A stretch of 64,000 nt of DNA from Rikenellaceae bacterium DTU049 (GTDB lineage: Bacteria > Bacteroidota > Bacteroidia > Bacteroidales > DTU049). This document shows, one piece after another, positions 5,054 through 63,265 of this stretch. Made by a program: the position numbers and the translations under genes. The stretch spans positions 1,309-65,308 of the forward strand of contig LFTI01000101.1 of assembly GCA_001513285.1 (NCBI GenBank), given 5' to 3'. The first letter of the stretch is position 1; each line of letters opens with the position of its first letter. The notes below the pieces were generated by a model. The model made no database searches. It saw nothing but the letters and a program-made list of their open reading frames with translations, and was not told the origin of the DNA.

Positions 5054-5093
5054 AAAGTTGATAAGTTGATTAGTTGAGAAGTTGATTAAAGGG
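5054..5093 (+). repeat. G/T-rich module 'aagttgataagttgattagttgagaagttgatt' (inverted counterpart of 'ctcaacttatcaactt' at 12580-12597)
   Basis: Direct comparison: the reverse complement of 12581-12597 is contained in this tract. Confidence 0.6.
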
Positions 5094-5104
5094 ATATCTA
5101 AATA

Positions 5105-5207
5105 GTAGTTTTATCAAATCATTTCCCCAGTCGATATCTTTCTTAATTCACTTAAAATCAATGATACTCAGTAATAATTTAGTTATTAATTAAACGCCTA
5201 ATTCAAT
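5105..5207 (+). repeat. intergenic repeat family A, copy 1 (internally deleted)
   Basis: 'gtagttttatcaaatcatttcc...aaaatcaatgatactca...gtaataatttagttattaattaaacgcctaattcaat' matches the 3' two-thirds of 9958..10245. Confidence 0.8.
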
Positions 5208-5211
5208 TTAT

Positions 5212-5769
5212 CTAAGTATTAATCAAGGTTATAATTACACAAACCACTCCATTAATGAAATAAAACATTGAAGACATAATATAAAATATTTTTACAGAGC
5301 CTAATCTATTAACCTGCTTGCCCGCATATACACCAATAAATAAAAATAGCAAGATAAAAATAATTGTATACAACATCGATCTATAGATATTAGCAAACAT
5401 ATAACTGACAGATAAAGCAGCTAAAAATGATTCGAAACTCAATGATAACGATATCGTAAGTACTGTCTTAAATTTATTCAAATCTACAATTAATTCACTT
5501 AGTTTGCCCTTAGCTATACTGAAATACATCCTAACAGCTAAAAATAGAAATAGAATTATACTTATTATGCCAGGATAGAAAGGTAAAGTAACCATCGTAG
5601 CCAATCCTAATTTGTAACCTAAAAAGTACATTAACATTGATACTATAGCAAAAATCAAATTCACCATTACAATTTGTGCATTTGATTTGAAAATTAATGC
5701 ATGTCGATACGATGTAGCCATTAAAAAAAATCCAAGACTGATGCTTGCTAAAATAGGAATTATGTCCAT
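5212..5769 (-). CDS. small polytopic membrane protein, possibly MntP/DUF204-like
   Basis: 185 aa with about 6 hydrophobic segments. Size and two-half architecture resemble manganese efflux pump MntP, but the first-half acidic motif is not evident. Confidence 0.4.
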   Translation of the reverse strand: MDIIPILASISLGFFLMATSYRHALIFKSNAQIVMVNLIFAIVSMLMYFLGYKLGLATMVTLPFYPGIISIILFLFLAVRMYFSIAKGKLSELIVDLNKFKTVLTISLSLSFESFLAALSVSYMFANIYRSMLYTIIFILLFLFIGVYAGKQVNRLGSVKIFYIMSSMFYFINGVVCVIITLINT

Positions 5770-5870
5770 ATTTTTTTCTTTATTTACAAAAATACTAAAA
5801 AAATAGCTTTATTTATTGATATCTTTTTTTAAATTTTGCATAATATTTTTGTTATATTACATACTAATAA

Positions 5871-6872
5871 ATGAAAATACTTATTAGTCCATTAGATTGG
5901 GGACTCGGGCATGCTACTAGGCTCATTCCTATTATTAAAAAATTATCAGATAATGGTAATGACATCATTATAGCTGGTAATGGTAAAAGCTTTGCTTTAA
6001 TCAAAAAATATTTTGATAATGCTCAATTCATCCCATTTTATTCTATTCATTTTAAATATTCTAAAAATGGCCTTAATATTTTTAATTATTTCATCATCGC
6101 TTTTCAGATAATCTGGCAAACTATTTATGAACATTTTAAACTTAAAAAATTAATAAAATTGTACAAAATAGATATCATCATTAGTGATAATCGCTACGGT
6201 TTATTTAATAAAAATGTTACTTCATATTTCATTACTCACCAGCTAAATGTAATTTTACCAAAATATTTATCTTTTGCTAATCCATTAATTAATAGTTATA
6301 TAAGGCATTATCTTAAAAAATACGATCAAATTTTGATTCCAGATTACCAAGCTTATAATGAAAGCTTAGCAGGCAAATTATCTCATCCATCTAATTATAA
6401 TAAATTACCTGTCTCATATATAGGACCTTTATCTAGATTTGATAAGTTATATATTTCAAAAAATGAAAAACAATATGATGTAGTTATATTAATTTCTGCT
6501 CCATTATCATATTGCAAATTAATTGTAAAAAAATTAAGTGATTTTGCTTCTTTGAATACCTCAGTTTCTTTTGCTATAATCTCTCCATATTTATTTGGAA
6601 TTAATCATACTAATCTAACGATTATAAATTCTCCAGATGATATCCAATGGCTATCTATAGTCTCAAACGCTAAAAATATAATTTCTACAGCAGGTTATTC
6701 TACTATAATGGATTTATTTTTAATAAATAAAAATGCTATTTTAGTTCCAGTGAAAGGACAAACTGAGCAAGAATATTTAGCTAATTATTTGAATAATAAA
6801 TATGGATTTAAAAAAGCAGACTCTTTCAATAATGCTATCGCACAAGTTTTGCAATACTGCATTGAGAAATAA
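5871..6872 (+). CDS. glycosyltransferase (GT-B, MGT/MurG-like family)
   Basis: The N-terminal 'MKILISPLDWGLGHATR' motif is typical of the GT1/GT28-like family, and the C-terminal half reads 'GYSTIMDL...PVKGQTEQEYLA'. The last codons and the stop lie inside repeat family A. Confidence 0.7.
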   Translation: MKILISPLDWGLGHATRLIPIIKKLSDNGNDIIIAGNGKSFALIKKYFDNAQFIPFYSIHFKYSKNGLNIFNYFIIAFQIIWQTIYEHFKLKKLIKLYKIDIIISDNRYGLFNKNVTSYFITHQLNVILPKYLSFANPLINSYIRHYLKKYDQILIPDYQAYNESLAGKLSHPSNYNKLPVSYIGPLSRFDKLYISKNEKQYDVVILISAPLSYCKLIVKKLSDFASLNTSVSFAIISPYLFGINHTNLTIINSPDDIQWLSIVSNAKNIISTAGYSTIMDLFLINKNAILVPVKGQTEQEYLANYLNNKYGFKKADSFNNAIAQVLQYCIEK

Positions 6873-7087
6873 TTTGCAATAAAACAAGCAAGTCGTATTG
6901 GATAGAAACGATTTTATAGGGTTTTATAATTTTAAACCCATCAAATCATTTCCCGAGCAGAGACTTTTCTTTGTGTGGCTAACAAAGAAAAATAAATTAG
7001 AATGAAATTTATTTAAAATCAATAATACTCATAAGAAATATAGCTATTAAAGTGAATAAACCAGTAATAATTTAGTTATTAATTAAA
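6866..7087 (+). repeat. intergenic repeat family A, copy 2
   Basis: 'gagaaataatttgcaataaaacaagcaagtcgtattggata...gggtttta..taaaccc...atcatttcccgagcagagacttttctttgtgtggctaacaaagaaaa...atttatttaaaatcaataatactcataagaaa...ccagtaataatttagttattaattaaa'. Confidence 0.85.
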
Positions 7088-7152
7088 AAAATTTCTTTTG
7101 AAAAATTAATAAAAATGCTTAAATTTGTAAAATTTATTTTCATAAATTAATT

Positions 7153-8289
7153 ATGGATCGTAGAGATTTTATCAAGCAAAGTTTAATTACAGGAGTAGGT
7201 GGATTTTTATTAACACAACTTCCATTTTTAAATAAATTAGAAGCTAAAAATACAATAAATAAAATCATGCAAAACGAAGAACAATTAGCCAAATATTGGG
7301 AAAATATTAATGATACTACAGTTAGATGTTTACTATGTCCTAATTATTGCGTAATAAAGGACGGACAAGTAGGTATATGCAAAGATCGCAAAAATATTGA
7401 TGGTAAATTATACAGCTTATCATATGGCAGAATAGTAGCACTTAATATCGATCCAATTGAAAAAAAACCTTTATATCATTTCTTACCTATGTCTACTATA
7501 CTATCCTTTGGTACAGCAGGTTGCAATTTTTCATGTAAAAATTGCCAAAATTGGGATATAGCTCAGGTATCTCCATTGTCTGTAAAATCTTATAATTACA
7601 CACCAGAGCAACTGATAAAAGCAGCTTTAGCACAAAATATACCATCTATAGCATTTACATACAATGAGCCTACTGTTTTTTATGAATTTATGTATGAAAC
7701 TGCACTTTTAGCTAAAAATAATGGCATCAAAACTGTTTTAGTTAGCAATGGATATATTAATCCTCAACCATTAGCTGATTTAATTCCATATTTAGACGCT
7801 GCCAATATAGATTTGAAATCATTTGACGATAATATTTATTTAAGATTAAATGGTGGTAAACTACAGCCAGTTTTAAATACTTTAAAAAATTTAAAAGAAA
7901 ATGGTGTTTGGTTAGAAATCACTAATCTAATAGTACCCACCTATACAGATGATTTGAATATGATAGAGAATATGGTGAAATGGTTGATAGATAATGGTTT
8001 CGCAGATGTACCTTTACATTTTTCAAGATTTTTCCCTGCATATAAATTATCTAATTTACCACCTACACCTGTAGAAACTATTATGGCTGCTGTCAAAATA
8101 GCTCGTGATAATGGTATGAGATATGTTTACACTGGTAATGTTTTAGACGTAAATAATGATAGTACTTTTTGCCCTCAATGCAATTCTATTTTGATAAAAC
8201 GTCAAGGTTATCATACATCTATCATAGGTTTAAATAGCGAAGGAAATTGCACGAAATGTGGTTATCATATTCCTGGTGTTTGGTCATAG
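7153..8289 (+). CDS. AmmeMemoRadiSam-system-type radical SAM enzyme with N-terminal twin-arginine signal
   Basis: 'CPNYCVIKDGQVGICKDRKN', 'DPIEKKPLYHF' and the radical SAM cluster 'CNFSCKNCQNW' match this family. The N-terminus 'MDRRDFIKQSL' plus a hydrophobic stretch is Tat-like. Confidence 0.8.
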   Translation: MDRRDFIKQSLITGVGGFLLTQLPFLNKLEAKNTINKIMQNEEQLAKYWENINDTTVRCLLCPNYCVIKDGQVGICKDRKNIDGKLYSLSYGRIVALNIDPIEKKPLYHFLPMSTILSFGTAGCNFSCKNCQNWDIAQVSPLSVKSYNYTPEQLIKAALAQNIPSIAFTYNEPTVFYEFMYETALLAKNNGIKTVLVSNGYINPQPLADLIPYLDAANIDLKSFDDNIYLRLNGGKLQPVLNTLKNLKENGVWLEITNLIVPTYTDDLNMIENMVKWLIDNGFADVPLHFSRFFPAYKLSNLPPTPVETIMAAVKIARDNGMRYVYTGNVLDVNNDSTFCPQCNSILIKRQGYHTSIIGLNSEGNCTKCGYHIPGVWS

Positions 8290-8388
8290 ACACTGTATTT
8301 TCTAAAATATAAACATTAGTATTTTTTCTATTAATTTATAATTTTAAGTTTAACTATTTTTGTAAAAAAAAGTTAAACTTAATTTTTA

Positions 8389-9831
8389 ATGGAGAAATTT
8401 TTATTTTTTATTTTACTGATGATAAGCATGGTAGCAATGTCACAAAATACGGTTATAAATAAAAATTTTGATGACAATGATTTTTTACATAGTAATGATA
8501 TTGATAGCACACTACATATGATCACCCCTTATTTTAGTGGATTAGCAAGTGAAAAAAATTATGAACTTTTGTTCGGAGTTAACTTTAAAAAAGAGTTTCA
8601 AAACAAAAATACTTTTTTCAAAATATGGACAAAACCTGAGTTTTTATTTTTTTCTTTGTATGATTACCTAGACGAATATGATTCTATCTCTCGTTTCCCT
8701 GGAGGAGAAAAAATTTATAATGAACATTACTCGTGGAATGCACCTATAGAACTAACTATGACTGTAAAAAATCATTATACTTTGTCTGTGGGTTACAGTA
8801 AATTTCATTGGGGTAATGGATATAGAGGATTGAATATATCATACGCCAGTGCCAATTATCCTTATTTGCTTCAGCGATTTACAATCAAAGGATTAGATTT
8901 TTCATGGGCTATGATGAGATGGACTAATCCATTAACAAAGCCAAACTATGATAAATATTCCATATTTCATAGTTTTTCATTTAATATCGGGCAAAAATGG
9001 CGATTTGCATTTTTCGAAAACATCATTTATCCTGCTAGAGATAGTACTCACAACAATTTTGAGTTTGTATATTTATTGCCTCACATTTTTTACAGATATA
9101 TAGATTATTCCCTTGGATCACCTTATAATTTATATTTTGGTGGGAATTTTAATTGGCGCGCTGGTAAAAATTTTCAAATCTATGGACAAGCTATTTTAGA
9201 TGATTTCATTTTCAGTGAATTTCGAAAAGACATAAAGCATAGATTACATCCTAATGATAGCAACATAGTTTATGGTAATTGGATGAATAAATATGCCATA
9301 CAAATAGGTATCAAGTGGAGAACAAATAATAATAATTTCCGCTCGAGATTAGAATTTAATGCTGTTCGCCCTTATACTTATAGTCACAAAAATCCCATTC
9401 AAAATTTCTCTAATAATGGCCAGCCTGTTGCTCATCCTTTCGGAGCCAATTTTTACGAAGCTTTGCTTGAGGCTTCACTTATCAAAAAAAATTGGCAATT
9501 TTATTTCATAAGTTTCTATAAACACATTGGCTATGACTCTACTGGTACTCATTTTGGACAAAATATTTTCCAACCTACCTTTGATGCTTATACAGGCAAT
9601 AACATTCCCGTAAACCCATTCTATAATGTTATAGGACAGGGAAATGTGGAGAGATTGATAGCTACACAGATTAATATTATGTATAAATATAAAATCAACT
9701 ATGTAGATTATATTTACTTGGGTGCTGGATTAGAATACAGATGCAGCATTAATGGAGATTATAGCAAATTAATTCCTTTTATCAGAATACAATTTAATAT
9801 TAATAATATGCATGTGTGGCATAGCTATTAG
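8389..9831 (+). CDS. putative outer-membrane beta-barrel protein (Wzi/RemB-like is only a guess)
   Basis: 480 aa with a signal peptide, an aromatic-rich alternating pattern and a C-terminal aromatic residue. 'AVRPYTYSH...QPVAHPFGANFYE' reminds me of capsule-assembly/gliding OM proteins. Confidence 0.4.
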   Translation: MEKFLFFILLMISMVAMSQNTVINKNFDDNDFLHSNDIDSTLHMITPYFSGLASEKNYELLFGVNFKKEFQNKNTFFKIWTKPEFLFFSLYDYLDEYDSISRFPGGEKIYNEHYSWNAPIELTMTVKNHYTLSVGYSKFHWGNGYRGLNISYASANYPYLLQRFTIKGLDFSWAMMRWTNPLTKPNYDKYSIFHSFSFNIGQKWRFAFFENIIYPARDSTHNNFEFVYLLPHIFYRYIDYSLGSPYNLYFGGNFNWRAGKNFQIYGQAILDDFIFSEFRKDIKHRLHPNDSNIVYGNWMNKYAIQIGIKWRTNNNNFRSRLEFNAVRPYTYSHKNPIQNFSNNGQPVAHPFGANFYEALLEASLIKKNWQFYFISFYKHIGYDSTGTHFGQNIFQPTFDAYTGNNIPVNPFYNVIGQGNVERLIATQINIMYKYKINYVDYIYLGAGLEYRCSINGDYSKLIPFIRIQFNINNMHVWHSY

Positions 9832-9957
9832 TATTTTCACAATGTAGAAATCATAATAAACTTATTGAAATATGCGTTTAGATAATAAAGTCCTTTTTGA
9901 TTTTTTGTACTAAAAAATGCCTTTACAATAATTCGTAAGTTATGGCAATACCGCATT

Positions 9958-10245
9958 GGGAAATGATTTGCAATAAAACAAGCAAGCCGTGTTGGATATA
10001 AGGGTTTACACTGTTTGAGCAAGCTAAAGCTTGCGAGTTTGTAAACCCACAGAGGTGATTGCGTAGTTTTATCAAAACATTTCCACAGCGGAGACTTTTC
10101 TTTTGTTACTTTTCTTTGTGTGGCTGACAAAGAAAAGTAATTTAAATAAAAATTTATTTAAAATCAATTATGCTCATAAGAAAAATAGCTATTATCGAGG
10201 ATGAACCAGTAATAATTTAGTTATTAATTAAACGCCTAATTCAAT
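9958..10245 (+). repeat. intergenic repeat family A, copy 3 (longest)
   Basis: Same module order as copy 2 with an expanded 'gggtttaca...tgtaaaccc' hairpin. Ends 'taataatttagttattaattaaacgcctaattcaat', like copy 1. Confidence 0.85.
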
Positions 10246-10430
10246 AAACTTACTAAGAAAAATATTAACAAAGCCAATTTAATCTATATTATTTAAGTTT
10301 TTAATTATAATATTGCTATTTTAGATAAATTAAATATGGTTTTATAACGTTTTATATGGACAAGGATTAAAATATTTTTTTTATTTAAAAATTTTTTATA
10401 ATTTAGCTATGTAAAACCGTAAAAAATTAA

Positions 10431-12107
10431 ATGGATATGAAAAATTCAAAATTTACATCAATAAATACTCAGAAGGTAGCTCTGAGTCACTATGTGAGTA
10501 ATATTACATTTATTACAATACTTTTAGCATTAATATTATTTAATGGGGTCAATAATAAATCCCATGCCCAGGCACCAGCTATTGAATGGCAAAAATGCCT
10601 CGGCGGAACATCTGAAGATATTGCATACTCCATCCAGCAGACAAGTGATGGGGGATTTATTGTGGCTGGTGAAACATTGTCCAATGATGGCGATGTGTCG
10701 GGAAATCATGGAGGTAGAGACGCTTGGGTAGTGAAACTTAACAGTTCAGGGGATATTATATGGAAAAAATGCCTCGGCGGAACTGATCATGATTTTGCAT
10801 ACTCCATCCAGCAAACAAGTGATGGGGGATTTATTGTGGCTGGTTTAACAGGGTCCAATGATGGCGATGTGTCGGGAAATCATGGAGGTAGTGATGCTTG
10901 GGTAGTTAAACTTAACAGTTCAGGGGAAATTGAATGGCAAAAATGCCTCGGCGGTACAAATTATGATTTTGCATACTCCATCCAGCAGACAAGTGATGGG
11001 GGATTTATTGTGGCTAGTATTACAGGGTCCAATGATGGTGATGTGTCGGGGAATCATGGAGGTAGTGACTATTGGGTAGTGAAACTTAACAGTTCAGGGG
11101 GTATTGAATGGCAAAAATGCCTCGGCGGTACAAATAGTGATGGCGGAATATTTAATGATTATATATACTCCATTCAGCAGACAAGTGATGGAGGATTTAT
11201 TATGGCTTGTGAAACAATGTCCAATGACGGCGATGTATCGGGGAATCATGGATCTTATGACGCTTGGGTAGTGAAACTTAATAGTTTAGGGGATATTGAA
11301 TGGCAAAAATGCCTAGGCGGTACAAATAGGGATATTGCAAACTCCATCCAGCAAACAAGTGATGGGGGATTTATTGTGGCTGGCTCTACATCTTCCAATG
11401 ACGGCGATGTGTCGGGTAATCATGGATATGGTGACGCATGGGTAGTGAAACTTAATAGTTCAGGGGATATTGAATGGCAAAAATGCCTCGGTGGAACAAA
11501 TTCGGATTGGGCATACTCCATCCAGCAGACAAATGATAGTGGATTTATTGTGGCTGGTTACACACATTCCAATAACGGCGATGTATCAGGGAATCATGGA
11601 TATTATGACTATTGGGTAGTGAAACTTAACAGTTCAGGGGATATTGAATGGCAAAAATGTATTGGCGGTACAAATTATGAGTTTGCAAACTCCATTCAGC
11701 AGACAAGTGATGGTGGATTTATTGTGGCTGGTGAAACATTGTCCAATAACGGTGATGTGTCGGGAAATCATGGATATTCTGACGCTTGGGTAGTGAAATT
11801 AACAAATGAGCCGGATAGAATAAATGAAATAGAAAATTACAATTTACTCTCAATATACCCCAATCCATTCACAGAATATGCAATAATAACTTTTGATAAT
11901 CCTAAAAATGAAAAATACAAATTGCTTATTATAGATGTTACAGGAAAGGTAGTAATGGAAATTAATGAAATTTATGGAAATACAGTGGAAATTGATGGAA
12001 GTAATTTGTCTGCTGGGGTTTATGTGTTTGAACTGACCTGCGGTCAATGCGCTTTGGCAGGCGAAGAAGGGGAGAAGTTGTTCAGGGGGAGGTTTGTGGT
12101 AGAGTAA
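10431..12107 (+). CDS. secreted repeat (probable 7-bladed propeller) protein with T9SS type-A C-terminal sorting domain
   Basis: Signal peptide, then seven about 58-aa repeats 'WQKCLGGT..D.AYSIQQTSDGGFIVAG.T.SNDGDVSGNHG..DAWVVKLNSSGDIE'. A CTD follows ('LSIYPNPFTEYAIITF...SAGVYVFEL'). Confidence 0.85.
   Translation: MDMKNSKFTSINTQKVALSHYVSNITFITILLALILFNGVNNKSHAQAPAIEWQKCLGGTSEDIAYSIQQTSDGGFIVAGETLSNDGDVSGNHGGRDAWVVKLNSSGDIIWKKCLGGTDHDFAYSIQQTSDGGFIVAGLTGSNDGDVSGNHGGSDAWVVKLNSSGEIEWQKCLGGTNYDFAYSIQQTSDGGFIVASITGSNDGDVSGNHGGSDYWVVKLNSSGGIEWQKCLGGTNSDGGIFNDYIYSIQQTSDGGFIMACETMSNDGDVSGNHGSYDAWVVKLNSLGDIEWQKCLGGTNRDIANSIQQTSDGGFIVAGSTSSNDGDVSGNHGYGDAWVVKLNSSGDIEWQKCLGGTNSDWAYSIQQTNDSGFIVAGYTHSNNGDVSGNHGYYDYWVVKLNSSGDIEWQKCIGGTNYEFANSIQQTSDGGFIVAGETLSNNGDVSGNHGYSDAWVVKLTNEPDRINEIENYNLLSIYPNPFTEYAIITFDNPKNEKYKLLIIDVTGKVVMEINEIYGNTVEIDGSNLSAGVYVFELTCGQCALAGEEGEKLFRGRFVVE
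10587..11822 (+). repeat. coding tandem repeat, 7 units (six of 174 bp, one of 192 bp)
   Basis: Unit starts ('tggcaaaaatgcct') are at 10587, 10761, 10935, 11109, 11301, 11475 and 11649. Nucleotide similarity between units is high. Confidence 0.9.
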
Positions 12108-12122
12108 ATGCTAAAAGAGGGT
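12036..12122 (+). repeat. G/A-rich module (inverted orientation of the C/T-rich intergenic repeat family) overlapping the 3' end of CDS 10431..12107
   Basis: 'gcgaagaaggggagaagttgttcagggggagg' resembles the reverse complement of 12540-12560 and 38838-38858. It is locally GC-rich in an AT-rich genome. Confidence 0.5.
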
Positions 12123-12261
12123 AATTTTATAATAATGAATTTTATTTATTATTGCACAGTTAAATATTAACCACAAATTTAACAAAGAATGCACAAAGAA
12201 CACAGAGAATGATAGAAATTAATTGTCTGAAGTGGGATTTGGGAGATTAAAGGATTTTGGG

Positions 12262-12330
12262 ATTTACCCCGTGAGATAACTAGTATTCAACTTTTAATGT
12301 ATCTTTTACTCTATATCTCATGGGGTAAAT
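12262..12330. repeat. 17-bp inverted repeat (hairpin) inside the complex intergenic region
   Basis: 'atttaccccgtgagata' (12262-12278) pairs with 'tatctcatggggtaaat' (12314-12330). 16 of 17 positions are complementary and the mismatch is a G:U position. Confidence 0.7.
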
Positions 12331-12496
12331 TTATTATTTGTGCTCATTTGTATGCATTTGTGGACAATAAATAACAACCAGCAATGTCTATAATTTCATC
12401 CACAGATTTACACAAATTAACACTGATGATTTAGCTTTTTTAGTGCATTTGTTAATTAATTTACAGCTATTATCTTACTATACTATATAAACTATT

Positions 12497-12682
12497 CAAC
12501 TCCATCACTTATCACCTATCACTAATCACTAATCACCTCTTCTCCCTCTCTTCTCGTCACCACGTCTCGCAGTCTAATCGTCTCAACTTATCAACTTTAA
12601 ATTATAATTTGTGTGCATTTGTGGATTAATAACAACAATTGTATAGTTAAATATAAACCTAAATAATTTAACCAAAATAAAC
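12497..12682 (+). repeat. C/T-rich module plus 'tgcatttgtgga' core (intergenic repeat family B/C)
   Basis: 'cttatcacct...cctcttctccctctcttctcg...gtctcgcagtct' followed by 'tgtgtgcatttgtggattaataacaacaattgtata...aaataatttaacc'. Related copies lie at 24371-24670 and 57176-57293. Confidence 0.75.
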
Positions 12683-12721
12683 GTTATAGAACTTTAAATA
12701 TAAATAATTTTAAGAAAAAAT

Positions 12722-12859
12722 AAAAAAATTTTTTTATTTAAAAAGTATTTATTAATTTTGCAAAGTCAAAAACCCTAAAAACAAAAAGATATGAAAAAAT
12801 TAGCAATTTTAGTTTTTGTAGCAATGATTGCTGTATCATTCAGCAGTTGCCAAAAAGAA
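12722..12859 (+). repeat. promoter/5'UTR/lipoprotein-signal module, copy 1 of 4
   Basis: Near-identical to 23138..23273 (about 7 substitutions by manual alignment). Contains the -7 box taattttg and encodes MKKLAILVFVAMIAVSFSSCQKE. Confidence 0.85.
12753..12760 (+). promoter_or_regulatory. Bacteroidota-type -7 promoter box (TAnnTTTG)
   Basis: 'taattttg' lies about 30 nt upstream of the ATG at 12791. Confidence 0.45.
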
Positions 12860-13229
12860 GATACCCAAACAGCTATTATAAAATGTTAAAGAAATTGGAT
12901 TTAAGGGCGTTTTACAAAGTTGCCTTTACAGAATTGAAGGAAATTGTGTTTATGGCGTTTGTTGTACCCCTGGAGCTTTTGAACAATGTCCTTGCTGTTT
13001 TCCTTGTACTCCTATTATTATTGAAGGATCATATATTACTTTAGATTGTGCAAATATATTAGAAAAATTTGGTTTTACTGTGGATGAAATATCGATATGG
13101 CAAAATGATAAAAATGCTTTAGAATGCTCTGATACCTTCATTTTAAATCATTATAATTTTTATTTACTTTTATATGAACAAGGGCTATCAAAACATCCAG
13201 ATGAAATGTTAAAAAATATGAAAAAATAA
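12791..13229 (+). pseudogene. Cys-rich lipoprotein gene disrupted by a 1-nt frameshift
   Basis: A signal peptide plus lipobox ORF (ATG 12791) stops at 12887. A 115-codon ORF with no start codon runs 12882..13229 in the adjacent frame and encodes 'CLYRIEGNCVYGVCCTPGAFEQCPCCFPCTP...'. Removing one A from the aaaa run at about 12880-12883 fuses them. Confidence 0.5.
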
Positions 13230-13236
13230 AATAATT

Positions 13237-14388
13237 ATGAAAAAATATTATATTTTATTGATTAGTATGACATTGTGCCTTTGCTATTCCTGCCAAAATA
13301 ATAAAGACATAGCAAAAATAAATTTCACAATTGATAGCTGCACTATCAGTCATCCAGATATTAAGCAAATCACTAGTAAAATTAATATCGCAATGATAGA
13401 TATTAAAAAGTGGAATGATACTACTTTTTTATTTTTGATACCAAGCAATATGAATAGCACTATATCACTATACACCTACTACTGGGATAATGGTTTTAAT
13501 TTACTAAGCAAATATGAGCTCTCTGACAGCATAAGTAATTTTTTTCTCAAAAATCAATACAATAGCATTACATTTATAAATAAAGATTCATTAATTGCTG
13601 GCGGTAATAATAACTTTGCAATTATTGATTTGAAAAAAAATGAAATCTCACCATCCTATCGACCAAACGAAAATGAATATCTACAAGCGACACAGAATCC
13701 ACTACAATGGAATAGTAAACATAAATTATTATTATCAGAATATCTGAATTACTCTAATCCAACATCAGAGCTTGGCATTGTGCAGACTGAAATAATCGCT
13801 TGCATAGATTTCTATAATAATAAACTCTATAAAATCCCAATAAAAATGATTAATGAAGAGCAAATAAAGCTTGATCCTAATTATGTATTTCATTTTTCTA
13901 CTTTTGATGATAAAATTATTGGTAAACACAGCATAAAAAATGAGTTTTTAGTTTATAATTTTAATGATAATTCAGTAAAAACTATAGAAAATGATGCATT
14001 AGCAAATTTCAATAAAAAATTCACAAATAAAGAGAAGGAACGATTAGAAAAATTACAAAAACAGCTCGGACTATATGATTTTCGTTTGAATGAATTTGCA
14101 AATAATTATATACAAAAAGCTATCGTGTGCGATCAAACTAATGGTAATATTATCATAGCTTACTTAGATCCAGTGCCTCAGGATGGTAAAGATGATAAAA
14201 AACCTCCAATTTCTTATAGAGCTAAAACATTTTTAATTTTTGATAAAGATTTTAATTTGTTAGGAGAAATAAAAACTGATGTTGATAATTTCACACCATC
14301 AATGTTTTTTAGCATAGACAATAATATTTTCTTGATAGAGATTTGTTTTAATAAATTAAATATTAAAAGAATTTCCTATGAATCCTAA
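13237..14388 (+). CDS. hypothetical lipoprotein
   Basis: 383 aa. Signal peptide with lipobox ('LCLCYSC'). I recognise no family. Confidence 0.6.
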   Translation: MKKYYILLISMTLCLCYSCQNNKDIAKINFTIDSCTISHPDIKQITSKINIAMIDIKKWNDTTFLFLIPSNMNSTISLYTYYWDNGFNLLSKYELSDSISNFFLKNQYNSITFINKDSLIAGGNNNFAIIDLKKNEISPSYRPNENEYLQATQNPLQWNSKHKLLLSEYLNYSNPTSELGIVQTEIIACIDFYNNKLYKIPIKMINEEQIKLDPNYVFHFSTFDDKIIGKHSIKNEFLVYNFNDNSVKTIENDALANFNKKFTNKEKERLEKLQKQLGLYDFRLNEFANNYIQKAIVCDQTNGNIIIAYLDPVPQDGKDDKKPPISYRAKTFLIFDKDFNLLGEIKTDVDNFTPSMFFSIDNNIFLIEICFNKLNIKRISYES

Positions 14389-14806
14389 AAGATTTCTTTT
14401 ACTATTTTGTTTAATATTAATAATTTTCATAGTTAGTAGTTGCAGAGAAAAATATCCTGATGAAAAGCTCATAAATGAATATGTGGCTATAAATAAAGAT
14501 AAATTTAATAATGAAAATACTTTTTACCTATTATCTATGCGAGAAACTCCACTTTCTTGTGCTAATAAACTCATACAGTTTGATCCAGATAAAGTGATAA
14601 AGCGAATATCTGACTCACTGAAAAATGAAAAAATATTTTTACTCACTGATGAATTTATATATTTCTACTTAGACACTATACATGCAGGAAGTGTAAAAAT
14701 AATCATAGATTCTAGCTATGTATTAGACCAATACAGACTGCCACATTCAGCACATTTATTTTATTTTAAAAATGGGAAAATTAAAAATTGGCAAATAGCA
14801 TTATAG
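14378..14806 (+). CDS. hypothetical lipoprotein
   Basis: 142 aa. Lipobox 'IVSSC'. The start overlaps the upstream stop by 11 nt, which suggests translational coupling. Confidence 0.6.
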   Translation: MNPKRFLLLFCLILIIFIVSSCREKYPDEKLINEYVAINKDKFNNENTFYLLSMRETPLSCANKLIQFDPDKVIKRISDSLKNEKIFLLTDEFIYFYLDTIHAGSVKIIIDSSYVLDQYRLPHSAHLFYFKNGKIKNWQIAL

Positions 14807-21471: not shown

Positions 21472-21537
21472 AATTTTGTAAATCTATAATATATTTAACC
21501 TAAGCTGTTTAAATATAAGGAATCATCATATAAAAAA

Positions 21538-21665
21538 GAAAAAAATTTTTTTATCTCAAAACAATTACTAATTTTGAACCATCAAAACTCTAAAAAATTA
21601 AAAGATATTAAAAAATTAGTAATTTTAGTTTTTGCAGTAATGATAGATGACATCTCTTGTGAATA
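21538..21665 (+). repeat. promoter/5'UTR/lipoprotein-signal module, copy 2 of 4 (decayed)
   Basis: Same layout as 12722..12859, but the start codon reads ata and the signal-peptide frame ends after about 20 codons. The OMP gene begins 35 nt downstream. Confidence 0.7.
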
Positions 21666-22500: not shown

Positions 22501-22519
22501 TGAAGTCATAATTAGTTGA

Positions 22520-22596
22520 AAATTTTTTTATTTAAAAAGTAATTACTAATTTGGCACCGTCGAAAGTCAAAAAACAAAAAGATATGAAAAAATTAG
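22520..22596 (+). repeat. promoter/5'UTR module, copy 3 of 4 (only the first 4 codons are shared)
   Basis: 'aaaatttttttatttaaaaagtaattactaatttggcaccgtcgaaagtcaaaaaacaaaaagatATGAAAAAATTAG'. Confidence 0.7.
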
Positions 22597-22991
22597 ATAA
22601 ATACGATTGGCAAGAAATCATTTTTGTGGCAATTTTTATAATTACTGCTACTTTAGGTAGAAATGATATAAGCTTTGGTAAAATAATAACTATTTTCTAT
22701 TTCCCACTTTTAATAATATTTTTAGCATATCTAGAGATTAAAAGAGGTAATTTCAAAATTGATAGTGTATGGGCAGTGTTTACCTTATTTTATAAATCAT
22801 TTTATTTAACAGCTATGTTTTTCATTATGAGTAAATATCCTGGTTATCAGATTATGGCAGTTTCAGCTTCGATAGTAACTATTCTATATATAATATTGAC
22901 ATATTTTGTTAAAAAGAATAATAATCTAGCTATCAGAGCAGTGATATATTATCTTGTTTTTGGACTATTCTTGTCTCCCATTTATTATTAA
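22584..22991 (+). CDS. hypothetical 4-TM membrane protein
   Basis: I prefer the ATG at 22584 (MKKLDKY...), which matches the repeated leader module, over the TTG at 22551 in the ORF track. Confidence 0.55.
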   Translation: MKKLDKYDWQEIIFVAIFIITATLGRNDISFGKIITIFYFPLLIIFLAYLEIKRGNFKIDSVWAVFTLFYKSFYLTAMFFIMSKYPGYQIMAVSASIVTILYIILTYFVKKNNNLAIRAVIYYLVFGLFLSPIYY

Positions 22992-23137
22992 AGTAATATA
23001 CAGCTTAGATGTGGTGGAATATGTAATGTAAAAACAGCATTTTTTCATATAAAAGTTCACAAAAATTACAATTATATTAATAATATTTTTAAAAGAAACA
23101 AATAATTACTAATTGAAAAATATATAATATTTAAAGA

Positions 23138-23273
23138 AAAAATTTTTTTATTTAAAAAGTATTTAGTAATTTTGCAACGTCAAAAACCCTAAAAACAAAA
23201 AAATATGAAAAAATTAGCAATTTTAGTATTTGTAGCAATGATAGCTGTTTCATTCAGCAGTTGCCAAAAAGAA
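23138..23273 (+). repeat. promoter/5'UTR/lipoprotein-signal module, copy 4 of 4
   Basis: See 12722..12859. It drives the intact lipoprotein gene 23205..23678. Confidence 0.85.
23167..23174 (+). promoter_or_regulatory. Bacteroidota-type -7 promoter box (TAnnTTTG)
   Basis: 'taattttg' lies 30 nt upstream of the ATG at 23205. Confidence 0.45.
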
Positions 23274-23678
23274 AAACCACAAAGTGTAGCAGAAAAATTT
23301 TTATCAGCCTACGTAAAAGCAGATTTCGAAACTGCTAAAACAGTTACTTCAGGTGATGCTTTAGAGCAAATTAATCAAATCAGTAATATGGTTAGTTCAT
23401 ATCCTGAATTCTTCCCTACAGATGCAAGTTATGAAAATCTTAATTGTCAAGAAATCGAAAACAAAGTAAAATGTACTTTTACCATGGTTCAAAATTCTGA
23501 AAAATTTGATGGTAACTATGTAGAACTAGAAAAAATAGATGGTAAATGGATGGTTACTACTTTAGGTTATGAAGGAGAAGAACTTCCAGAAATGACTGAA
23601 GAAGAGACTATGACCGATTCTACTGCTATGCAAAGCGATTCAGCAGCAATGGCTGAAACTCAACCAGTTACTGAATAA
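23205..23678 (+). CDS. lipoprotein, DUF4878-like
   Basis: 157 aa. Lipobox 'FSSC'. 'VAEKFLSAYVKADFETAKTV' is the characteristic opening of DUF4878-type proteins. Acidic C-terminal tail. Confidence 0.6.
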   Translation: MKKLAILVFVAMIAVSFSSCQKEKPQSVAEKFLSAYVKADFETAKTVTSGDALEQINQISNMVSSYPEFFPTDASYENLNCQEIENKVKCTFTMVQNSEKFDGNYVELEKIDGKWMVTTLGYEGEELPEMTEEETMTDSTAMQSDSAAMAETQPVTE

Positions 23679-24228: not shown

Positions 24229-24370
24229 ATTTGAATATTAATTTATAATTTACCTATATTAAATCCTTTAATAAATCCATAATATTTTGGATTTAAATGT
24301 ATTATAATTAGCTACATATTTAAACAAATAGTTGATGAGTTTAAGTGTTTATAAGCTAATTAGAAAAAAC

Positions 24371-24670
24371 TAACCTTTTCCTCACACAGTCTCCTTGTCT
24401 CCTACTCTCCCACTCTCCCCATAACTATTTCTTTGTCATACCCTGGCCTAAAGGTCATGATTAATAACCTTTTTTGTACTTATTTGTGTGAATTTGTGGA
24501 CTAATTTATAATTAATATTTTACTAAACTCCTTATAACTTTTTACTTATCACCTCTTCACCCACTCTCCGAGTCTCGCAGTCTCCCAATCTCCTCATCTC
24601 TTTGCCTCCCTGTCTCCTTGTCACCCCCTCTCCCAGTCTCCCCATCACCCACTCTCTCCTACTCTATCAC
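24371..24670 (+). repeat. about 300-bp strongly C/T-rich composite repeat (two C/T modules flanking a 'tgaatttgtggac' core)
   Basis: 'ccttttcctcacacagtctccttgtctcctactctcccactctcccc' ... 'cttatcacctcttcacccactctccgagtctcgcagtctcccaatctcc...ctctcccagtctccccatcaccc'. It ends exactly at the rfbB stop codon (24671). Confidence 0.8.
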
Positions 24671-38511: not shown

Positions 38512-38796
38512 TTGACAGGAAAATACTTCGCAATCGGCAACAAAAAACAAGTAAAGCGTTGTCTATATAGTGTCAAGATAGTTGAGAGCAAAATAAATGA
38601 TTTCAAGACGTGGTTGAGTAGATTTCACGGAGTAGCTACGAAGTACTTGCAAAGCTACTTAATGTGGTTTGTGATAGTGAATAAGTACTTAAAAGAATTG
38701 ATAGATCCAGACATTGGGAGACTGCTAAACTTGTCCTCGCACGACAGATGGGCGTGGGACAAGTATAGAGAGATAGTTAGTCAAAGATATTATTAA
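38512..38796 (+). pseudogene. 5'-truncated IS1595-like transposase remnant (C-terminal about 90 aa only)
   Basis: 'FHGVATKYLQSYLMWFVIVNKYL...GRLLNLSSHDRWAWDKY' aligns with the C-terminus of 48822..49829 ('FRGVATKYLTNYIMWFVVRGKYL...GRLLNLAASDRRAWERY'). Confidence 0.75.
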
Positions 38797-43881: not shown

Positions 43882-44874
43882 ATGAAATTTAATAGTGATA
43901 CTGAAGCTGCTAAAAGTTTAGTAGAATTTTACGAGAATTTAAAACATGAAACTGCCAAAGTGATTGTAGGCCAAGAAGATGTGATAGATAAACTTTTGAT
44001 TTCCCTATTCACACAAAACCATGCTTTATTAATAGGTGTACCTGGACTAGCCAAAACACTTTTGATAACGACAATTTCACAAATTTTAGGATTATCTTTT
44101 AATAGGATACAATTTACACCAGATTTGATGCCTTCAGACATTCTAGGTACAGAAATCCTTGATGAGCATAAAAATTTTCATTTTATTAAAGGACCAATTT
44201 TTGCAAATATTATTTTAGCAGATGAAATCAATAGAACACCACCTAAAACACAATCTGCACTTTTAGAAGCTATGCAAGAGAGATCAGTATCTATTGCTGG
44301 TAATACTTTCGAATTAGATCGTCCTTTTTTTGTATTAGCTACTCAGAATCCTATTGAACAAGAAGGTACATATCCTTTGCCAGAAGCTCAACTAGATAGA
44401 TTCATGTTTTCTATTTGGCTAGATTATCCAACTATTAATGAGGAGATAGAAATTGTGAAAAGGACAACTTTCGTGGATATGCCTACTGTGAATAATATTA
44501 TTGATAAAGAAACTCTGCTAGAATATCAAAAATTAGTAAGAAAAATTAATGTCCCAGATCATGTTTATGAATTTGCAGTGCAGATAACAGCAAAAACTCG
44601 TCCTGTATATTCAGATTCTCATCCAATGGCAAAAGAATATGTTGCTTGGGGCGGTGGTCCTAGATCTAGTCAATTTATGATTTTAGGTGCTAAATGTCAT
44701 GCATTACTTAGTGGTAAATTTGCACCAGATAATGAAGATGTGAAAGCTGTGGCTGATAGTGTTTTTAGACATAGATTAGTCCTTAACTATAGAGCAGAAG
44801 CAGAGGGAATAAATACTATTGATATTATACACGAAATCATTAAAGATATAGAAAAAAATAATTTTAAAAAATAA
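43882..44874 (+). CDS. MoxR-family AAA+ ATPase
   Basis: 330 aa. Walker A 'GVPGLAKT', Walker B 'ILADEINR' and 'ATQNPIEQEGTYPLPEAQLDRF'. Confidence 0.9.
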   Translation: MKFNSDTEAAKSLVEFYENLKHETAKVIVGQEDVIDKLLISLFTQNHALLIGVPGLAKTLLITTISQILGLSFNRIQFTPDLMPSDILGTEILDEHKNFHFIKGPIFANIILADEINRTPPKTQSALLEAMQERSVSIAGNTFELDRPFFVLATQNPIEQEGTYPLPEAQLDRFMFSIWLDYPTINEEIEIVKRTTFVDMPTVNNIIDKETLLEYQKLVRKINVPDHVYEFAVQITAKTRPVYSDSHPMAKEYVAWGGGPRSSQFMILGAKCHALLSGKFAPDNEDVKAVADSVFRHRLVLNYRAEAEGINTIDIIHEIIKDIEKNNFKK

Positions 44875-44917
44875 TTGAGATAAGCATTTATTCTCGAATA
44901 GATTTAATCCTGTAGGT

Positions 44918-44946
44918 GGGTAATAATTTGCAATAAAACAAGCAAT
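44918..44946 (+). repeat. intergenic repeat family A, copy 4 (5' module only)
   Basis: 'gggtaataatttgcaataaaacaagcaat' versus 'gggaaatgatttgcaataaaacaagcaag' at 9958. Confidence 0.7.
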
Positions 44947-48821: not shown

Positions 48822-49829
48822 TTAAATGTTATAGATTAAATATGTTTTTGACATCAAAGCACTGTACCGCTCCCATGCCCGCCTATCCGACGCCGCCAAA
48901 TTCAGCAACCTCCCTGTATCTTCTATAATCTTCTCCGCCAAATACTTACCTCTCACTACAAACCACATTATGTAGTTTGTCAAATACTTTGTCGCCACTC
49001 CTCGAAACTTATAATATATCCAGCCAACAAAATCTGTTATCTTCTTATGAATAGTTGATACACTGTATATACCATCTTTCTTCTTTTTCTTAGAAGATAT
49101 CTCTTTGTGTTTGATGTGCTCAGCATTAACTGTTTTGAAAGCTTTTTTATCGCTGCCGCATACCACTGAATTCTCAGATATCCTATATTTTAGAAAATCT
49201 GATATGTGTTCAGCCTGAACTCGTTTATCTTCTAATTTTTTGAACAAAATATTTCCACTTCTATCTGTGGCAGCTATTATTGCTACTTTCTCTGGCTTCT
49301 TTTTCGTTAGCTTTTTTAATTCTTTCTTGTCTCGTCTCTTTTTACCTTTTTCAGAATAATTCATTAGAAGCTCCTCTAATTCTACTATTCCAAAGAAATT
49401 AATATTGTCTTCAAAAGATTGCAAAGCACAGAGAATTCTATGTCGCCAAAAGAAACTCGTTGTGAGGCTAATATTCACAATTCTTGCACATTCTCTCAAG
49501 CTCATTCCTGCACTCATACATTTGATATATTCGAGCATTTTGCCCTTTTCATGAACCCCATACATAAAAGTGCCAGTGGTAACTCTAAATTGTCTTCCAC
49601 AGTTTTTGCAACGGTAATTTTGAACTCCACTTTGCAAACCGTTTTTAATTACATGGCTGCTATTGCAATCTGGACAAAGTACACCAGTAGACATAGCTTT
49701 GATCTCTTGATAATCTACGACATCTTTGCCTTCTTCGATCATTTGATCATAAAGATTGTCGTAAAACTCGCGTGTACCTTCCTTAGTAAGGGTAAATATT
49801 TTAGTAGGGTTTTCAAATATTTTATCCAT
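48822..49829 (-). CDS. IS1595-like transposase
   Basis: Zn-ribbon 'CPDCNSSH...YRCKNCGRQF', HTH 'MSLRECARIVNISLTTSFFWRHRI' and a DDE-type core ('GIVELEEL', 'VVCGSDKKAF', 'ITDFVGW'). The ATG at 49829 is preferred because a -7 box lies between it and the track start at 49871. Confidence 0.8.
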   Translation of the reverse strand: MDKIFENPTKIFTLTKEGTREFYDNLYDQMIEEGKDVVDYQEIKAMSTGVLCPDCNSSHVIKNGLQSGVQNYRCKNCGRQFRVTTGTFMYGVHEKGKMLEYIKCMSAGMSLRECARIVNISLTTSFFWRHRILCALQSFEDNINFFGIVELEELLMNYSEKGKKRRDKKELKKLTKKKPEKVAIIAATDRSGNILFKKLEDKRVQAEHISDFLKYRISENSVVCGSDKKAFKTVNAEHIKHKEISSKKKKKDGIYSVSTIHKKITDFVGWIYYKFRGVATKYLTNYIMWFVVRGKYLAEKIIEDTGRLLNLAASDRRAWERYSALMSKTYLIYNI

Positions 49830-63184: not shown

Positions 63185-63265
63185 TAAAAATTTTTTGTAA
63201 AGATTTTACAATAGAATATCCTTTATAAATTTACATTAGAAAATGATAAAAATATTAAATTACAT

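What the first reader, a model, noticed from the sequence alone, without database searches (positions are those of the whole stretch)
5105..10245. Modular intergenic repeat (family A) in direct orientation, punctuating successive gene blocks
Copies lie at 5105-5207, 6866-7087, 9958-10245 and 44918-44946, all on the + strand orientation and each just downstream of a + strand gene (dnaJ, glycosyltransferase, OM barrel gene, moxR). The full element has ordered modules. Module (i) is 'gg.aat.atttgcaataaaacaagcaag.cgt.ttggata'. Module (ii) is a gggttt...aaaccc hairpin whose length differs between copies while pairing is kept. Module (iii) is 'agttttatcaaa.catttcc.cag'. Module (iv) is the hairpin 'ttctttgt-gtggct.-acaaagaa'. 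Module (v) is 'atttatttaaaatcaat.at.ctcataagaaa' followed by 'ccagtaataatttagttattaattaaacgcctaattcaat'. Copies differ by whole-module deletions. Copies 1-3 bracket two 2-gene blocks (5212-6872 and 7153-9831). The element could be a structured 3'-UTR or small RNA family, a REP/BIME-like element, or a recombination site.
Basis: seen in the sequence. Interest (0 to 1): 0.55.

Follow-up and report, generated by a model that had tools for sequence, protein, structure and literature searches.

The report
Mosaic MITE family in uncultured Bacteroidales
The repeat is real. It is a small, non-coding "jumping" DNA element (a MITE) with a palindromic cargo, present in one intact and three broken copies here, and it is an ordinary kind of selfish repeat rather than a demonstrated regulatory RNA or gene-cassette site.

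Summary
The four copies exist at the stated coordinates and are far beyond chance.

- The fullest copy (c3) is larger than reported. It spans 9866-10243 and is bounded by about 27-38-nt terminal inverted repeats (TGAAWTAGGCGTTTA...) and a 10-bp direct duplication (ATAAACTTAT/ATAAACTTAC).
- Module (i) pairs with module (iii), forming a roughly 140-nt imperfect palindrome.

More than 100 copies occur in related Bacteroidales MAGs and digester metagenomes.

- **Solitary copies.** These are TIR-flanked, sit in either orientation relative to neighbouring genes, and carry target-site duplications (permutation p = 0.0008). Insertion sites differ between close relatives. The window itself holds the empty site of a copy present in a strain whose adjacent gene is 97.6% identical.
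- **Array copies.** The same roughly 215-nt cargo, without the TIR shell, separates orphan Rhs toxin/immunity cassettes in co-oriented arrays.

There is no Rfam match, no significant covariation, no G·U strand bias and no canonical terminator. Loop flips and perfect palindromic apexes point to DNA-level hairpins.

The two "bracketed blocks" are contiguous in relatives that lack c2 and c3, so they are not cassettes.

Verdict: this is a new, mosaic MITE family. c3 is intact, and c1, c2 and c4 are dead fragments. No parent transposase was found.

The parts
9856..9865 (.). Left target-site duplication of c3 (ATAAACTTAT)
   Evidence: Direct repeat of 10244-10253, matching at 9 of 10 positions. Across 19 TIR-flanked copies the flanks match at a mean of 6.0 of 10 against 4.9 for mismatched pairs, permutation p = 0.00075.
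9866..10243 (+). c3: the complete 378-bp element, made of left TIR/shell, palindromic core, tail hairpin and right shell/TIR
   Evidence: Terminal inverted repeats. 84-87% identical over 380-400 nt to copies L018, L037 and L165. nhmmer E = 1e-121 against a model built from 10 full copies that include c3 itself, so this match is circular.
9866..9950 (+).
   Evidence: module TIRL, 26 hits in the fetched loci.
9951..10091 (+). Core: a roughly 140-nt imperfect palindrome. The 5' arm is module i, the apex hairpin at 10003-10049 is module ii, and the 3' arm is module iii
   Evidence: MFE -65.8 kcal/mol, z = -5.1 on the + strand and z = -6.4 on the - strand. 94% of cells are paired across 43 copies against 35-49% in slid controls.
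10096..10140 (+). Tail: a 14-nt tandem duplication plus a 12-bp hairpin, ACTTTTCTTTGT-GTGGCTG-ACAAAGAAAAGT (module iv)
   Evidence: (I23). Mean pairwise identity among solitary copies is 97.5%.
10153..10243 (+). Right shell and right TIR (module v)
   Evidence: module TIRR, 18 hits.
10244..10253 (.). Right target-site duplication of c3 (ATAAACTTAC)
6855..7087 (+). c2: a dead copy. The left shell is missing, the apex is the short variant GGGTTTTATAATTTTAAACCC (6919-6939), the tail is single (hairpin 6967-6989), and the right TIR is cut about 15 nt short. It supplies the last 5 codons and the stop of the glycosyltransferase gene
   Evidence: Absent at the orthologous GT-rSAM spacer of L168 and L169, where homology to the window stops at 6853/6854 and resumes at 7116/7057.
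5105..5205 (+). c1: a remnant consisting of the core 3' arm (5105-5130), a decayed tail and the right shell/TIR (5145-5205). It is joined on its left to a fragment of another repeat module (5089-5113)
   Evidence: Full copies lie at the same position beside the mntP 3' end in L168 (6000-6340) and L170 (6021-6298). L169 has none, and its homology to the window starts at 5207.
44872..44946 (+). c4: a remnant consisting of a degenerate left TIR (44872-44890), a short shell and the core 5' arm (44917-44946)
10372..10381 (.). Empty target site (AATATTTTTT) of a different family copy that is inserted here in a close relative (L165 1143-1522)
   Evidence: Both flanks of the L165 copy align to uninterrupted sequence in the window and in L166. 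The adjacent gene is 97.6% identical, whereas the L165 element is only 87% identical to c3.

Best explanation
Family A is a non-autonomous transposable element, a MITE of about 380 bp, found in a lineage of uncultured AT-rich Bacteroidales from anaerobic digesters.

**Anatomy.** A shell carrying terminal inverted repeats (TGAAWTAGGCGTTTA...) encloses a roughly 215-nt cargo. The cargo is a 140-nt imperfect palindrome followed by a 12-bp hairpin.

**Mechanism (inferred).** A transposase supplied in trans binds the TIRs and integrates the element with 10-bp staggered cuts, mostly into AT-rich intergenic DNA and in either orientation. Copies then decay through deletions between the hairpin arms and through short-homology recombination with other repeat modules.

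**State of the window copies.** Only c3 is intact. c1, c2 and c4 are immobile fragments.

**What is shown and what is inferred.**
- Shown: TIRs, TSDs, many copies, insertion-site polymorphism and mosaic decay.
- Inferred: the transposition mechanism and the staggered cut.
- Not found: the transposase.

**Side effects seen.** c2 rewrites the C-terminus of a gene, and copies sit at synteny breakpoints. These fit passive consequences of a selfish repeat.
For: - **TIRs.** Found at both ends of c3 and of many copies elsewhere.
- **TSDs.** The 10-bp flanking direct repeats match 10/10 in L100, 9/10 in c3, L018 and L159, and 8/10 in L115. The mean is 6.0 against 4.9 in controls, p = 0.00075. The alternative that the TIR simply extends outward scores 4.9, the same as control.
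- **Variable cargo.** The same TIRs enclose unrelated cargos of 161-456 bp.
- **Copy number.** Of 165 exact motif hits, 112 carry the family signature, giving 84 distinct sequences, in 6 MAGs and many metagenome contigs. Many lie at contig ends.
- **Orientation.** No orientation bias for solitary copies: 11 co-oriented against 7 opposite.
- **Insertion polymorphism.** The window and L166 hold the empty site of the L165 copy. c2 and c3 are absent at orthologous sites in L168, L169 and L159, while those genomes carry copies elsewhere.
- **DNA-level hairpin signatures.** The apex loop is flipped (GCAAGC-TAAA-GCTTGC against GCAAGC-TTTA-GCTTGC). Apex replacements are perfect palindromes, complementary even through the loop: GGGGTTTAAAATTTTAAACCCC and GTAGGGGCGTATAATTATACGCCCCTAC. 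Precise deletions occur between the arms (CCGCATT|TCCCCAGCGG).
- **Non-coding.** Copies differ by indels of 20-115 nt, and the only ORF there has no Pfam hit.
Against: - No autonomous IS with these TIRs was found in the roughly 1.3 Mb fetched or in the window. The only recurrent transposase, of the IS1595 family, does not share the TIRs.
- About half of the copies have no convincing TSD.
- The cargo is better conserved than the TIRs (tail 97.5% against TIRs 78-84%). That is unexpected for purely neutral cargo, although gene conversion from the many array copies could explain it.
- The cargo also occurs without TIRs in at least 4 other left contexts, with a sharp edge at CCGC, and this model does not explain how it got there.
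Confidence: 0.72

Rival explanations
1. The core and tail form a functional structured RNA or cis-acting transcript element, such as a 3'-UTR stabiliser, an insulator/terminator or a small RNA. Under this reading the TIR shell is only one of its vehicles.
For: - Folding is very stable (z = -5.1).
- The tail and core are more conserved than the surrounding shell.
- In Rhs arrays the unit is strictly co-oriented with the genes: 47 of 47 units flanked on both sides by same-strand genes. It is followed by a conserved promoter-like segment and a start codon.
- Three different hairpins occupy the apex position.
Against: - No Rfam family matches.
- Covariation is not above the controls.
- Mismatches are as often A·C (21) as G·U (14), so neither strand is favoured. 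The - strand folds equally well.
- There is no hairpin-plus-U-tract terminator on either strand and no promoter enrichment.
- The apical helix is broken in 17 of 37 long copies.
- 25 copies replace the whole 3' arm with an unrelated GC-rich insert.
- Solitary copies lie in both orientations.
- Perfect palindromes running through the loop are not something RNA selection would produce.
Confidence: 0.12
2. The core is a site for site-specific recombination that assembles gene cassettes, an integron-attC-like or rAID-1-like system.
For: - It is an imperfect palindrome with a variable apex, like attC.
- In other loci the unit punctuates co-oriented arrays of orphan Rhs toxin/immunity cassettes.
- Bacteroidales rAID-1 clusters are reported to have repetitive intergenic sequences 'reminiscent of integrons' (bioRxiv 10.1101/471110).
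- Window copies lie at synteny breakpoints.
Against: - No tyrosine recombinase appears among 703 ORFs of the family loci, judged by recurrence clustering and a crude XerC/D box search.
- There is no GTTRRRY-type core site.
- The arrays lie downstream of full-length rhs genes, and identical cassettes are followed by different neighbours without an intervening core. This fits homologous recombination through the conserved Rhs coding sequence.
- The window's bracketed blocks are syntenic in relatives without the elements.
Confidence: 0.07
3. The copies never transposed. On this view they are relics of segmental duplications and homologous or illegitimate recombination among intergenic repeats.
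For: - Mosaicism is extensive and junctions fall at short homologies, for example TAGTTTTAT at the left edge of c1.
- The cargo occurs in several fixed flanking contexts.
- Many copies lack clear TSDs.
Against: - TIRs are combined with statistically supported 10-bp TSDs.
- There is a clean filled/empty site pair with homologous flanks on both sides.
- The same TIRs surround unrelated cargos.
Confidence: 0.09

Closest known systems
Bacterial MITEs in general (e.g. Correia elements of Neisseria, RUP of S. pneumoniae, MITEAba12)
   Same: Small, non-coding and multi-copy. Has TIRs and target-site duplications, lies mostly in intergenic DNA, shows insertion polymorphism between strains, is able to fold as a long hairpin, and sometimes alters neighbouring genes.
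   Different: No sequence relationship is known and the parent IS has not been identified. The 10-bp TSD and the TGAAWTAGGCGTTTA termini are not ones I can assign to a named IS family. The cargo is shared with non-MITE contexts (Rhs arrays).
BrickBuilt MITE of Porphyromonas gingivalis (Klein et al. 2015, PMC4596501; abstract read)
   Same: It is a composite, modular, strictly intergenic MITE from the same order. It has leader and tail subunits with small inverted-repeat ends, a variable internal part and about 19 copies per genome.
   Different: The interior of BrickBuilt is a 23-nt minisatellite, whereas here it is a 140-nt palindrome plus a hairpin. Sequence similarity was not tested. BrickBuilt has promoter activity shown experimentally, and nothing comparable is shown here.
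BOX elements of S. pneumoniae, and REP/BIME of enterobacteria (from general knowledge)
   Same: Modular intergenic repeats whose copies differ by the presence, absence or number of whole modules, and which have stem-loop potential.
   Different: BOX and REP elements lack this TIR-plus-TSD anatomy. REPs are 20-40-nt palindromes mobilised by RAYT transposases, and no RAYT was seen here.
Rhs orphan toxin/immunity arrays (e.g. Koskiniemi et al. 2014, PMC3967940, listed) and Bacteroidales rAID-1 clusters (bioRxiv 10.1101/471110)
   Same: In related contigs the cargo lies between co-oriented orphan Rhs C-terminal toxin and immunity cassettes downstream of full-length rhs genes. rAID-1 clusters likewise have repetitive intergenic sequences.
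   Different: The window copies are not in such an array. No XerD-like recombinase was found. The classical Rhs orphan literature, as far as I know, does not describe a conserved structured spacer of about 215 nt.

Membership tests
MITE | Short (under about 600 bp) and without coding capacity | tested here: met
   The full copy is 378 bp. Copies differ by indels of 20-115 nt. The only ORF there (9837-10130, - strand) has no Pfam hit.
MITE | Terminal inverted repeats | tested here: met
   9851-9888 against 10221-10258, 79% complementary over 38 nt. The conserved TGAAWTAGGCGTTTA motif is at both ends of many copies.
MITE | Target-site duplication of fixed length | tested here: met
   10-bp flanking repeats, with 5 of 19 copies matching at 8 or more of 10 positions. 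Mean 6.0 against 4.9, permutation p = 0.00075. Older copies have lost the duplication.
MITE | Multiple dispersed copies with insertion-site polymorphism | tested here: met
   More than 100 copies. A filled/empty pair between L165 and the window/L166. Copies lie at different sites in L159, L168, L169 and L170.
MITE | A cognate autonomous IS sharing the TIRs | tested here: inconclusive
   None was found in the window or in the roughly 1.3 Mb of fetched loci.
REP/BIME | 20-40-nt imperfect palindromes, often in alternating orientation, associated with a RAYT (TnpA_REP) gene | tested here: not met
   The unit is about 380 bp with TIRs and a TSD. The copies in the window are all direct. No RAYT-like ORF is among the recurrent protein clusters, although that search was not exhaustive.
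Integron attC / rAID-1 intergenic repeat | An adjacent tyrosine recombinase (IntI or XerD-like) | tested here: not met
   No recurrent recombinase cluster and no XerC/D box motifs in 703 ORFs. This is a crude test, and many arrays are cut off by contig ends.
Integron attC / rAID-1 intergenic repeat | Bracketed genes behave as cassettes that are variably present as units | tested here: not met
   mntP-GT-rSAM-OMP is contiguous in L168 and L169, which lack c2 and c3. In the arrays, cassette neighbours change without an intervening core.
Integron attC / rAID-1 intergenic repeat | Sequence match to the published rAID-1 intergenic motif | not testable with these tools
   The motif is given only in a figure (Fig. 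S4 of 10.1101/471110), and the figure is not held.
Structured non-coding RNA family | Match to a curated covariance model | tested here: not met
   Rfam 15 was searched at gathering and at E-value thresholds on the window and 19 loci. Only tRNAs and chance miRNA-hairpin matches far below their cut-offs were returned.
Structured non-coding RNA family | Compensatory base changes above background, and a G·U rather than A·C bias on one strand | tested here: not met
   2 pairs have double changes against 0.7 expected (54 of 500 shuffles). The covariation score is below the shuffled mean. There are 14 G·U against 21 A·C mismatches. Power is low because the copies are 86% identical on average.
Structured non-coding RNA family | Defined transcript ends or expression | not testable with these tools
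   No transcriptome data are available. The consensus scan finds no terminator in the element.

The most novel reading that the evidence does not exclude
The roughly 215-nt palindrome-plus-hairpin cargo is not inert. On this reading it is a functional module, either an insulator/processing site plus a portable promoter or a homology arm. It organises and keeps expressed the orphan Rhs toxin/immunity cassettes of this Bacteroidales lineage. That would amount to a recombinase-independent, integron-like cassette system whose spacer has also been picked up by a MITE shell and scattered around the genome. This would explain why the cargo is more conserved than the TIRs that move it.
Probability: 0.15. 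Interest if true: 0.6.

Novelty: new member of a known kind. Interest (0 to 1): 0.35.

Why it matters
For annotation, it explains a set of conspicuous intergenic repeats in an uncultured digester Bacteroidales. It also explains why MAG assemblies of this lineage break at them, why one gene has a lineage-specific C-terminus, and why local synteny differs between sister species.

It adds a well-delimited MITE family, with known TIR, TSD length and cargo, to a phylum where few have been described.

The link between the MITE cargo and the spacers of Rhs orphan toxin/immunity arrays is the only part that could be of wider interest. If the cargo proves functional, it would bear on how polymorphic-toxin islands are built and expressed.

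Tried and rejected
- **Known RNA families.** Rfam was searched at two thresholds on the window and 19 loci, with no relevant hit.
- **Coding.** The - strand ORF 9837-10130 has no Pfam hit, and the copies differ by indels.
- **Covariation.** I saw apparent compensatory changes by eye (c2 CTGC/GCAG, L029, L063). The formal count left only 2 double changes, which is not above the controls, and several of the by-eye cases were register shifts.
- **Guide-RNA idea.** I tested whether the variable 13-nt stretch after AAGCAAGC is complementary to the 5' flank. There are only 4-5 haplotypes and no consistent complementarity with the flank, so I rejected this.
- **Core as its own nested TIR-MITE or IS200/IS605-like element.** The core has no TSD. 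Its 3' flank is constant (AGAC...). The two hairpins are unlike each other, and there is no conserved target tetranucleotide. Rejected.
- **DGR template/variable repeat** (considered because c2 overlaps a gene's 3' end). The differences are not adenine-specific and there are far too many copies. Rejected.
- **Intron in rhs.** The element does sit between Rhs core fragments in arrays, but it also occurs in unrelated intergenic contexts and lacks intron features. Not pursued.
- **IS1595-family transposase as parent.** It is recurrent in 15 loci and present at 48822-49829, but it shares no TIRs.
- **Other collections.** Plasmid, phage and viral collections gave no match.
- **False positive.** A candidate extra TIR pair at 63169-63623 was a false positive.


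Full report
**Observation.**

The repeat is real. Module motifs occur 2-3 times in the 64-kb window against 0.00-0.02 expected from dinucleotide shuffles. Rfam finds nothing there.

**True extent and anatomy.**

A public-genome scan with a 19-mer from module (i) returned family members in six Bacteroidales MAGs, many at contig ends.

Self-comparison shows that 9851-9888 is the inverted complement of 10221-10258 (79% over 38 nt). A conserved terminal motif, TGAAWTAGGCGTTTA, sits at both ends of many copies.

c3 proper is 9866-10243. It is flanked by ATAAACTTAT and ATAAACTTAC.

Inside, module (i) pairs with module (iii), with module (ii) at the apex. Together they form a roughly 140-nt imperfect palindrome (9951-10091), followed by the 12-bp tail hairpin (module iv). 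Both strands fold far better than shuffles (z = -5.1 and -6.4).

**Census.**

A metagenome scan added 80 loci, mostly from anaerobic digesters and activated sludge. Of 165 exact motif hits, 112 carry the family signature, giving 84 distinct sequences.

Mapping nine modules over all loci gave these hit counts:

| Module | Hits |
|---|---|
| core 5' arm | 160 |
| tail | 146 |
| core 3' arm | 128 |
| long apex | 99 |
| promoter-like segment | 82 |
| Rhs-linked left module | 32 |
| left TIR shell | 26 |
| GC-rich replacement of the 3' arm | 25 |
| right TIR shell | 18 |

Two contexts emerge.

- **Solitary copies.** These are wrapped in the TIR shell and lie next to housekeeping genes. This is the form seen in the window.
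- **Array copies.** The same roughly 215-nt cargo occurs without TIRs in co-oriented arrays. Each unit is followed by a conserved promoter-like stretch and by the ATG of an orphan Rhs C-terminal fragment (MKIHYHSDHLGS... or MxTAKELDNETSYTYFGARYYD...), then by small signal-peptide ORFs. Pfam confirms RHS repeats, toxin domains (Peptidase_M23, Ntox44, DUF4056) and a DUF4348 immunity-like protein.

**Mobility.**

- **Target-site duplications.** Across 19 dereplicated TIR-flanked elements, the 10 nt outside the two termini match each other at a mean of 6.0 of 10 positions. Mismatched pairs score 4.9 (permutation p = 0.00075). Matches are 10/10 in L100, 9/10 in c3, L018 and L159, and 8/10 in L115. 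Treating the flanks as an extension of the TIR scores 4.9, the same as control.
- **Variable cargo.** The same TIRs enclose unrelated cargos of 161-456 bp.
- **Orientation.** Among 21 distinct solitary sites, the upstream gene is co-oriented in 11 and opposite in 7 (no ORF was called upstream at the other 3), which is no bias. The all-direct arrangement in the window is therefore not a family property.
- **Filled and empty sites.** In L165, whose T9SS gene is 97.6% identical to the window's, a different copy (87% identical to c3) is inserted in the gene's upstream region. The window and L166 carry the uninterrupted site, with homologous flanks on both sides.
- **Orthologous sites in relatives.** In L168 and L169 (GT 89% and 86% identical at the protein level), the order mntP-GT-rSAM-OMP is kept, but the GT-rSAM spacer holds other repeats instead of c2. 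Homology to the window stops at 6853/6854 and resumes at 7116/7057.
- **c3 in relatives.** c3 and the T9SS gene are absent downstream of the OMP gene in L159, L168 and L169. Those genomes carry family copies at other sites.
- **c1 in relatives.** A full copy lies at c1's position beside the mntP 3' end in L168 and L170, but not in L169.

**RNA test.**

On 43 distinct copies, 94% of cells in my proposed structure are paired, against 35-49% when partners are slid. Only 2 pairs show a change on both sides (0.7 expected, 54 of 500 shuffles), and the covariation score is below the shuffled mean. Mismatches are A·C 21 times and G·U 14 times, so neither strand is favoured. The apical helix is broken in 17 of 37 long copies. 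In 25 copies the whole 3' arm is replaced by a GC-rich multi-hairpin insert. No hairpin-plus-U terminator and no excess of promoter-like sites is found.

Several sequence features are hallmarks of DNA hairpins or cruciforms and replication slippage, not of RNA selection (read directly):

- a flipped apex loop (TAAA against TTTA);
- apex replacements that are perfect palindromes even through the would-be loop;
- precise deletions between the two arms.

The copies are too similar (86% mean column identity) for the covariation test to be powerful, so an RNA role is unsupported rather than excluded.

**Cassette and recombination test.**

The two bracketed blocks are contiguous in relatives that lack c2 and c3, so they are not cassettes.

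In the sister species L159/L160 (rSAM 90% identical), homology to the window runs only over 7081-9828 and 13222-14797. The breakpoints therefore coincide with the right end of c2 and the left end of c3. This fits repeats acting as passive substrates or markers of rearrangement.

In the Rhs arrays, identical cassettes have different neighbours without an intervening core, and the arrays follow full-length rhs genes. That matches the established model of orphan formation by homologous recombination in the conserved Rhs coding region. No recombinase was found among 703 ORFs, by recurrence clustering and a crude XerC/D motif search. Bacteroidales rAID-1 clusters do have integron-like intergenic repeats and a XerD-like recombinase (bioRxiv 10.1101/471110). 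Their motif is available only as a figure, so it could not be compared.

**Conclusion.**

Family A is a new mosaic MITE family. c3 is an intact copy with TIRs and a TSD. c2 lacks the left shell, has a short apex and a clipped right TIR, and donates the last five codons and the stop of the glycosyltransferase gene. c1 consists of the 3' arm, a decayed tail and the right shell, fused through a 9-nt homology to another repeat module. c4 consists of a degenerate left TIR and the 5' arm. c1, c2 and c4 are all dead fragments.

The transposase is unknown. An IS1595-family gene is recurrent and present at 48822-49829, but it does not share the TIRs. There are no matches in the plasmid, phage or viral collections.

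The closest described analogue in the same order is the composite BrickBuilt MITE of P. gingivalis (PMC4596501).

**What remains unexplained.**

- The cargo's tail hairpin is 97.5% identical among solitary copies, while the TIRs are 78-84% identical. The 5' arm's 98% is inflated because every locus was fetched with an exact word from it.
- The cargo has a sharp left edge at CCGC in at least five different left contexts, with no TSD of its own.

Gene conversion from the abundant array copies is the simplest account. A real function of the cargo in Rhs orphan arrays is the most novel reading still open (about 15%).

Noticed in passing
related loci, e.g. L081 5600-12910 (-), L108 285-6389 (-), L126, L079 1924-6237, L113: Co-oriented arrays of orphan Rhs C-terminal toxin fragments plus immunity-like ORFs. 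Each unit is separated by the family-A cargo (core plus tail) and a conserved promoter-like segment that supplies the ATG. The toxin domains include Peptidase_M23, Ntox44 and DUF4056.
   Followed up: partly
L034 788-903, L061, L075, L038, L092, L130, L140 and others (25 copies): A GC-rich insert of about 115 nt with several hairpins (..CCCTGTCAGGCTTTGCCTGACACCCCTTCGGAGAAGGGG..) replaces the 3' arm of the core in a subfamily. It has no Rfam match.
   Followed up: partly
window 6855-6872: The glycosyltransferase gene takes its last five codons and its stop (..YCIEK*) from repeat copy c2. Orthologues in L168 and L169 end ..VLQQ* and ..VLQQQK*.
   Followed up: yes
window 6873-7152 compared with L168 7990-8204 and L169 3156-3573: The GT-rSAM spacer is a repeat hot spot. 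It holds family A in the window, a CATTTGTGTGCATTTGTG-type repeat in L168, and a CATCACTTAT minisatellite of about 270 nt in L169.
   Followed up: partly
window 10602-11789: Six to seven tandem 174-nt (58-aa) repeats lie inside the T9SS-sorted protein gene 10431-12107.
   Followed up: no
window 12697-12869, 21532-21649, 22513-22627, 23111-23283: A repeated unit of promoter, 5'-UTR and signal peptide, with a perfect Bacteroidetes -7 box (TAATTTTG), lies in front of paralogous small lipoprotein-like genes.
   Followed up: no
window 12517-12584 and 24370-24664; also L159 12630-12700 and L168 10870-10950 (reverse complement): C/T-rich short-period repeats (GTCTCC/CTCTCC type) recur in the intergenic DNA of this lineage. 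They are another repeat family.
   Followed up: no
window 12343, 12604, 24479, 57221: The CATTTGTGTGCATTTGTGGAC repeat family. It is also found inside a 456-bp MITE that has the same TIRs as family A (L128 4602-5057).
   Followed up: no
window 48822-49829 (-); 50-nt inverted match 38623-38672 / 48958-49007: An IS1595-family transposase gene (Pfam DDE_Tnp_IS1595). Homologues occur in 15 of the fetched loci, so it is multi-copy in this lineage. Its ends do not resemble the family-A TIRs.
   Followed up: partly
window 5056-5090: Short-period AAGTTGAT-type repeats lie immediately left of c1. The reverse complement of a similar tract lies in the L128 MITE cargo.
   Followed up: no
window 9829-13221: This 3.4-kb stretch (c3, the T9SS repeat-protein gene and repeat-rich spacer) is absent between the OMP gene and the next conserved gene in L159, L168 and L169. 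The T9SS gene has a different left neighbour (sucD) in L165.
   Followed up: partly
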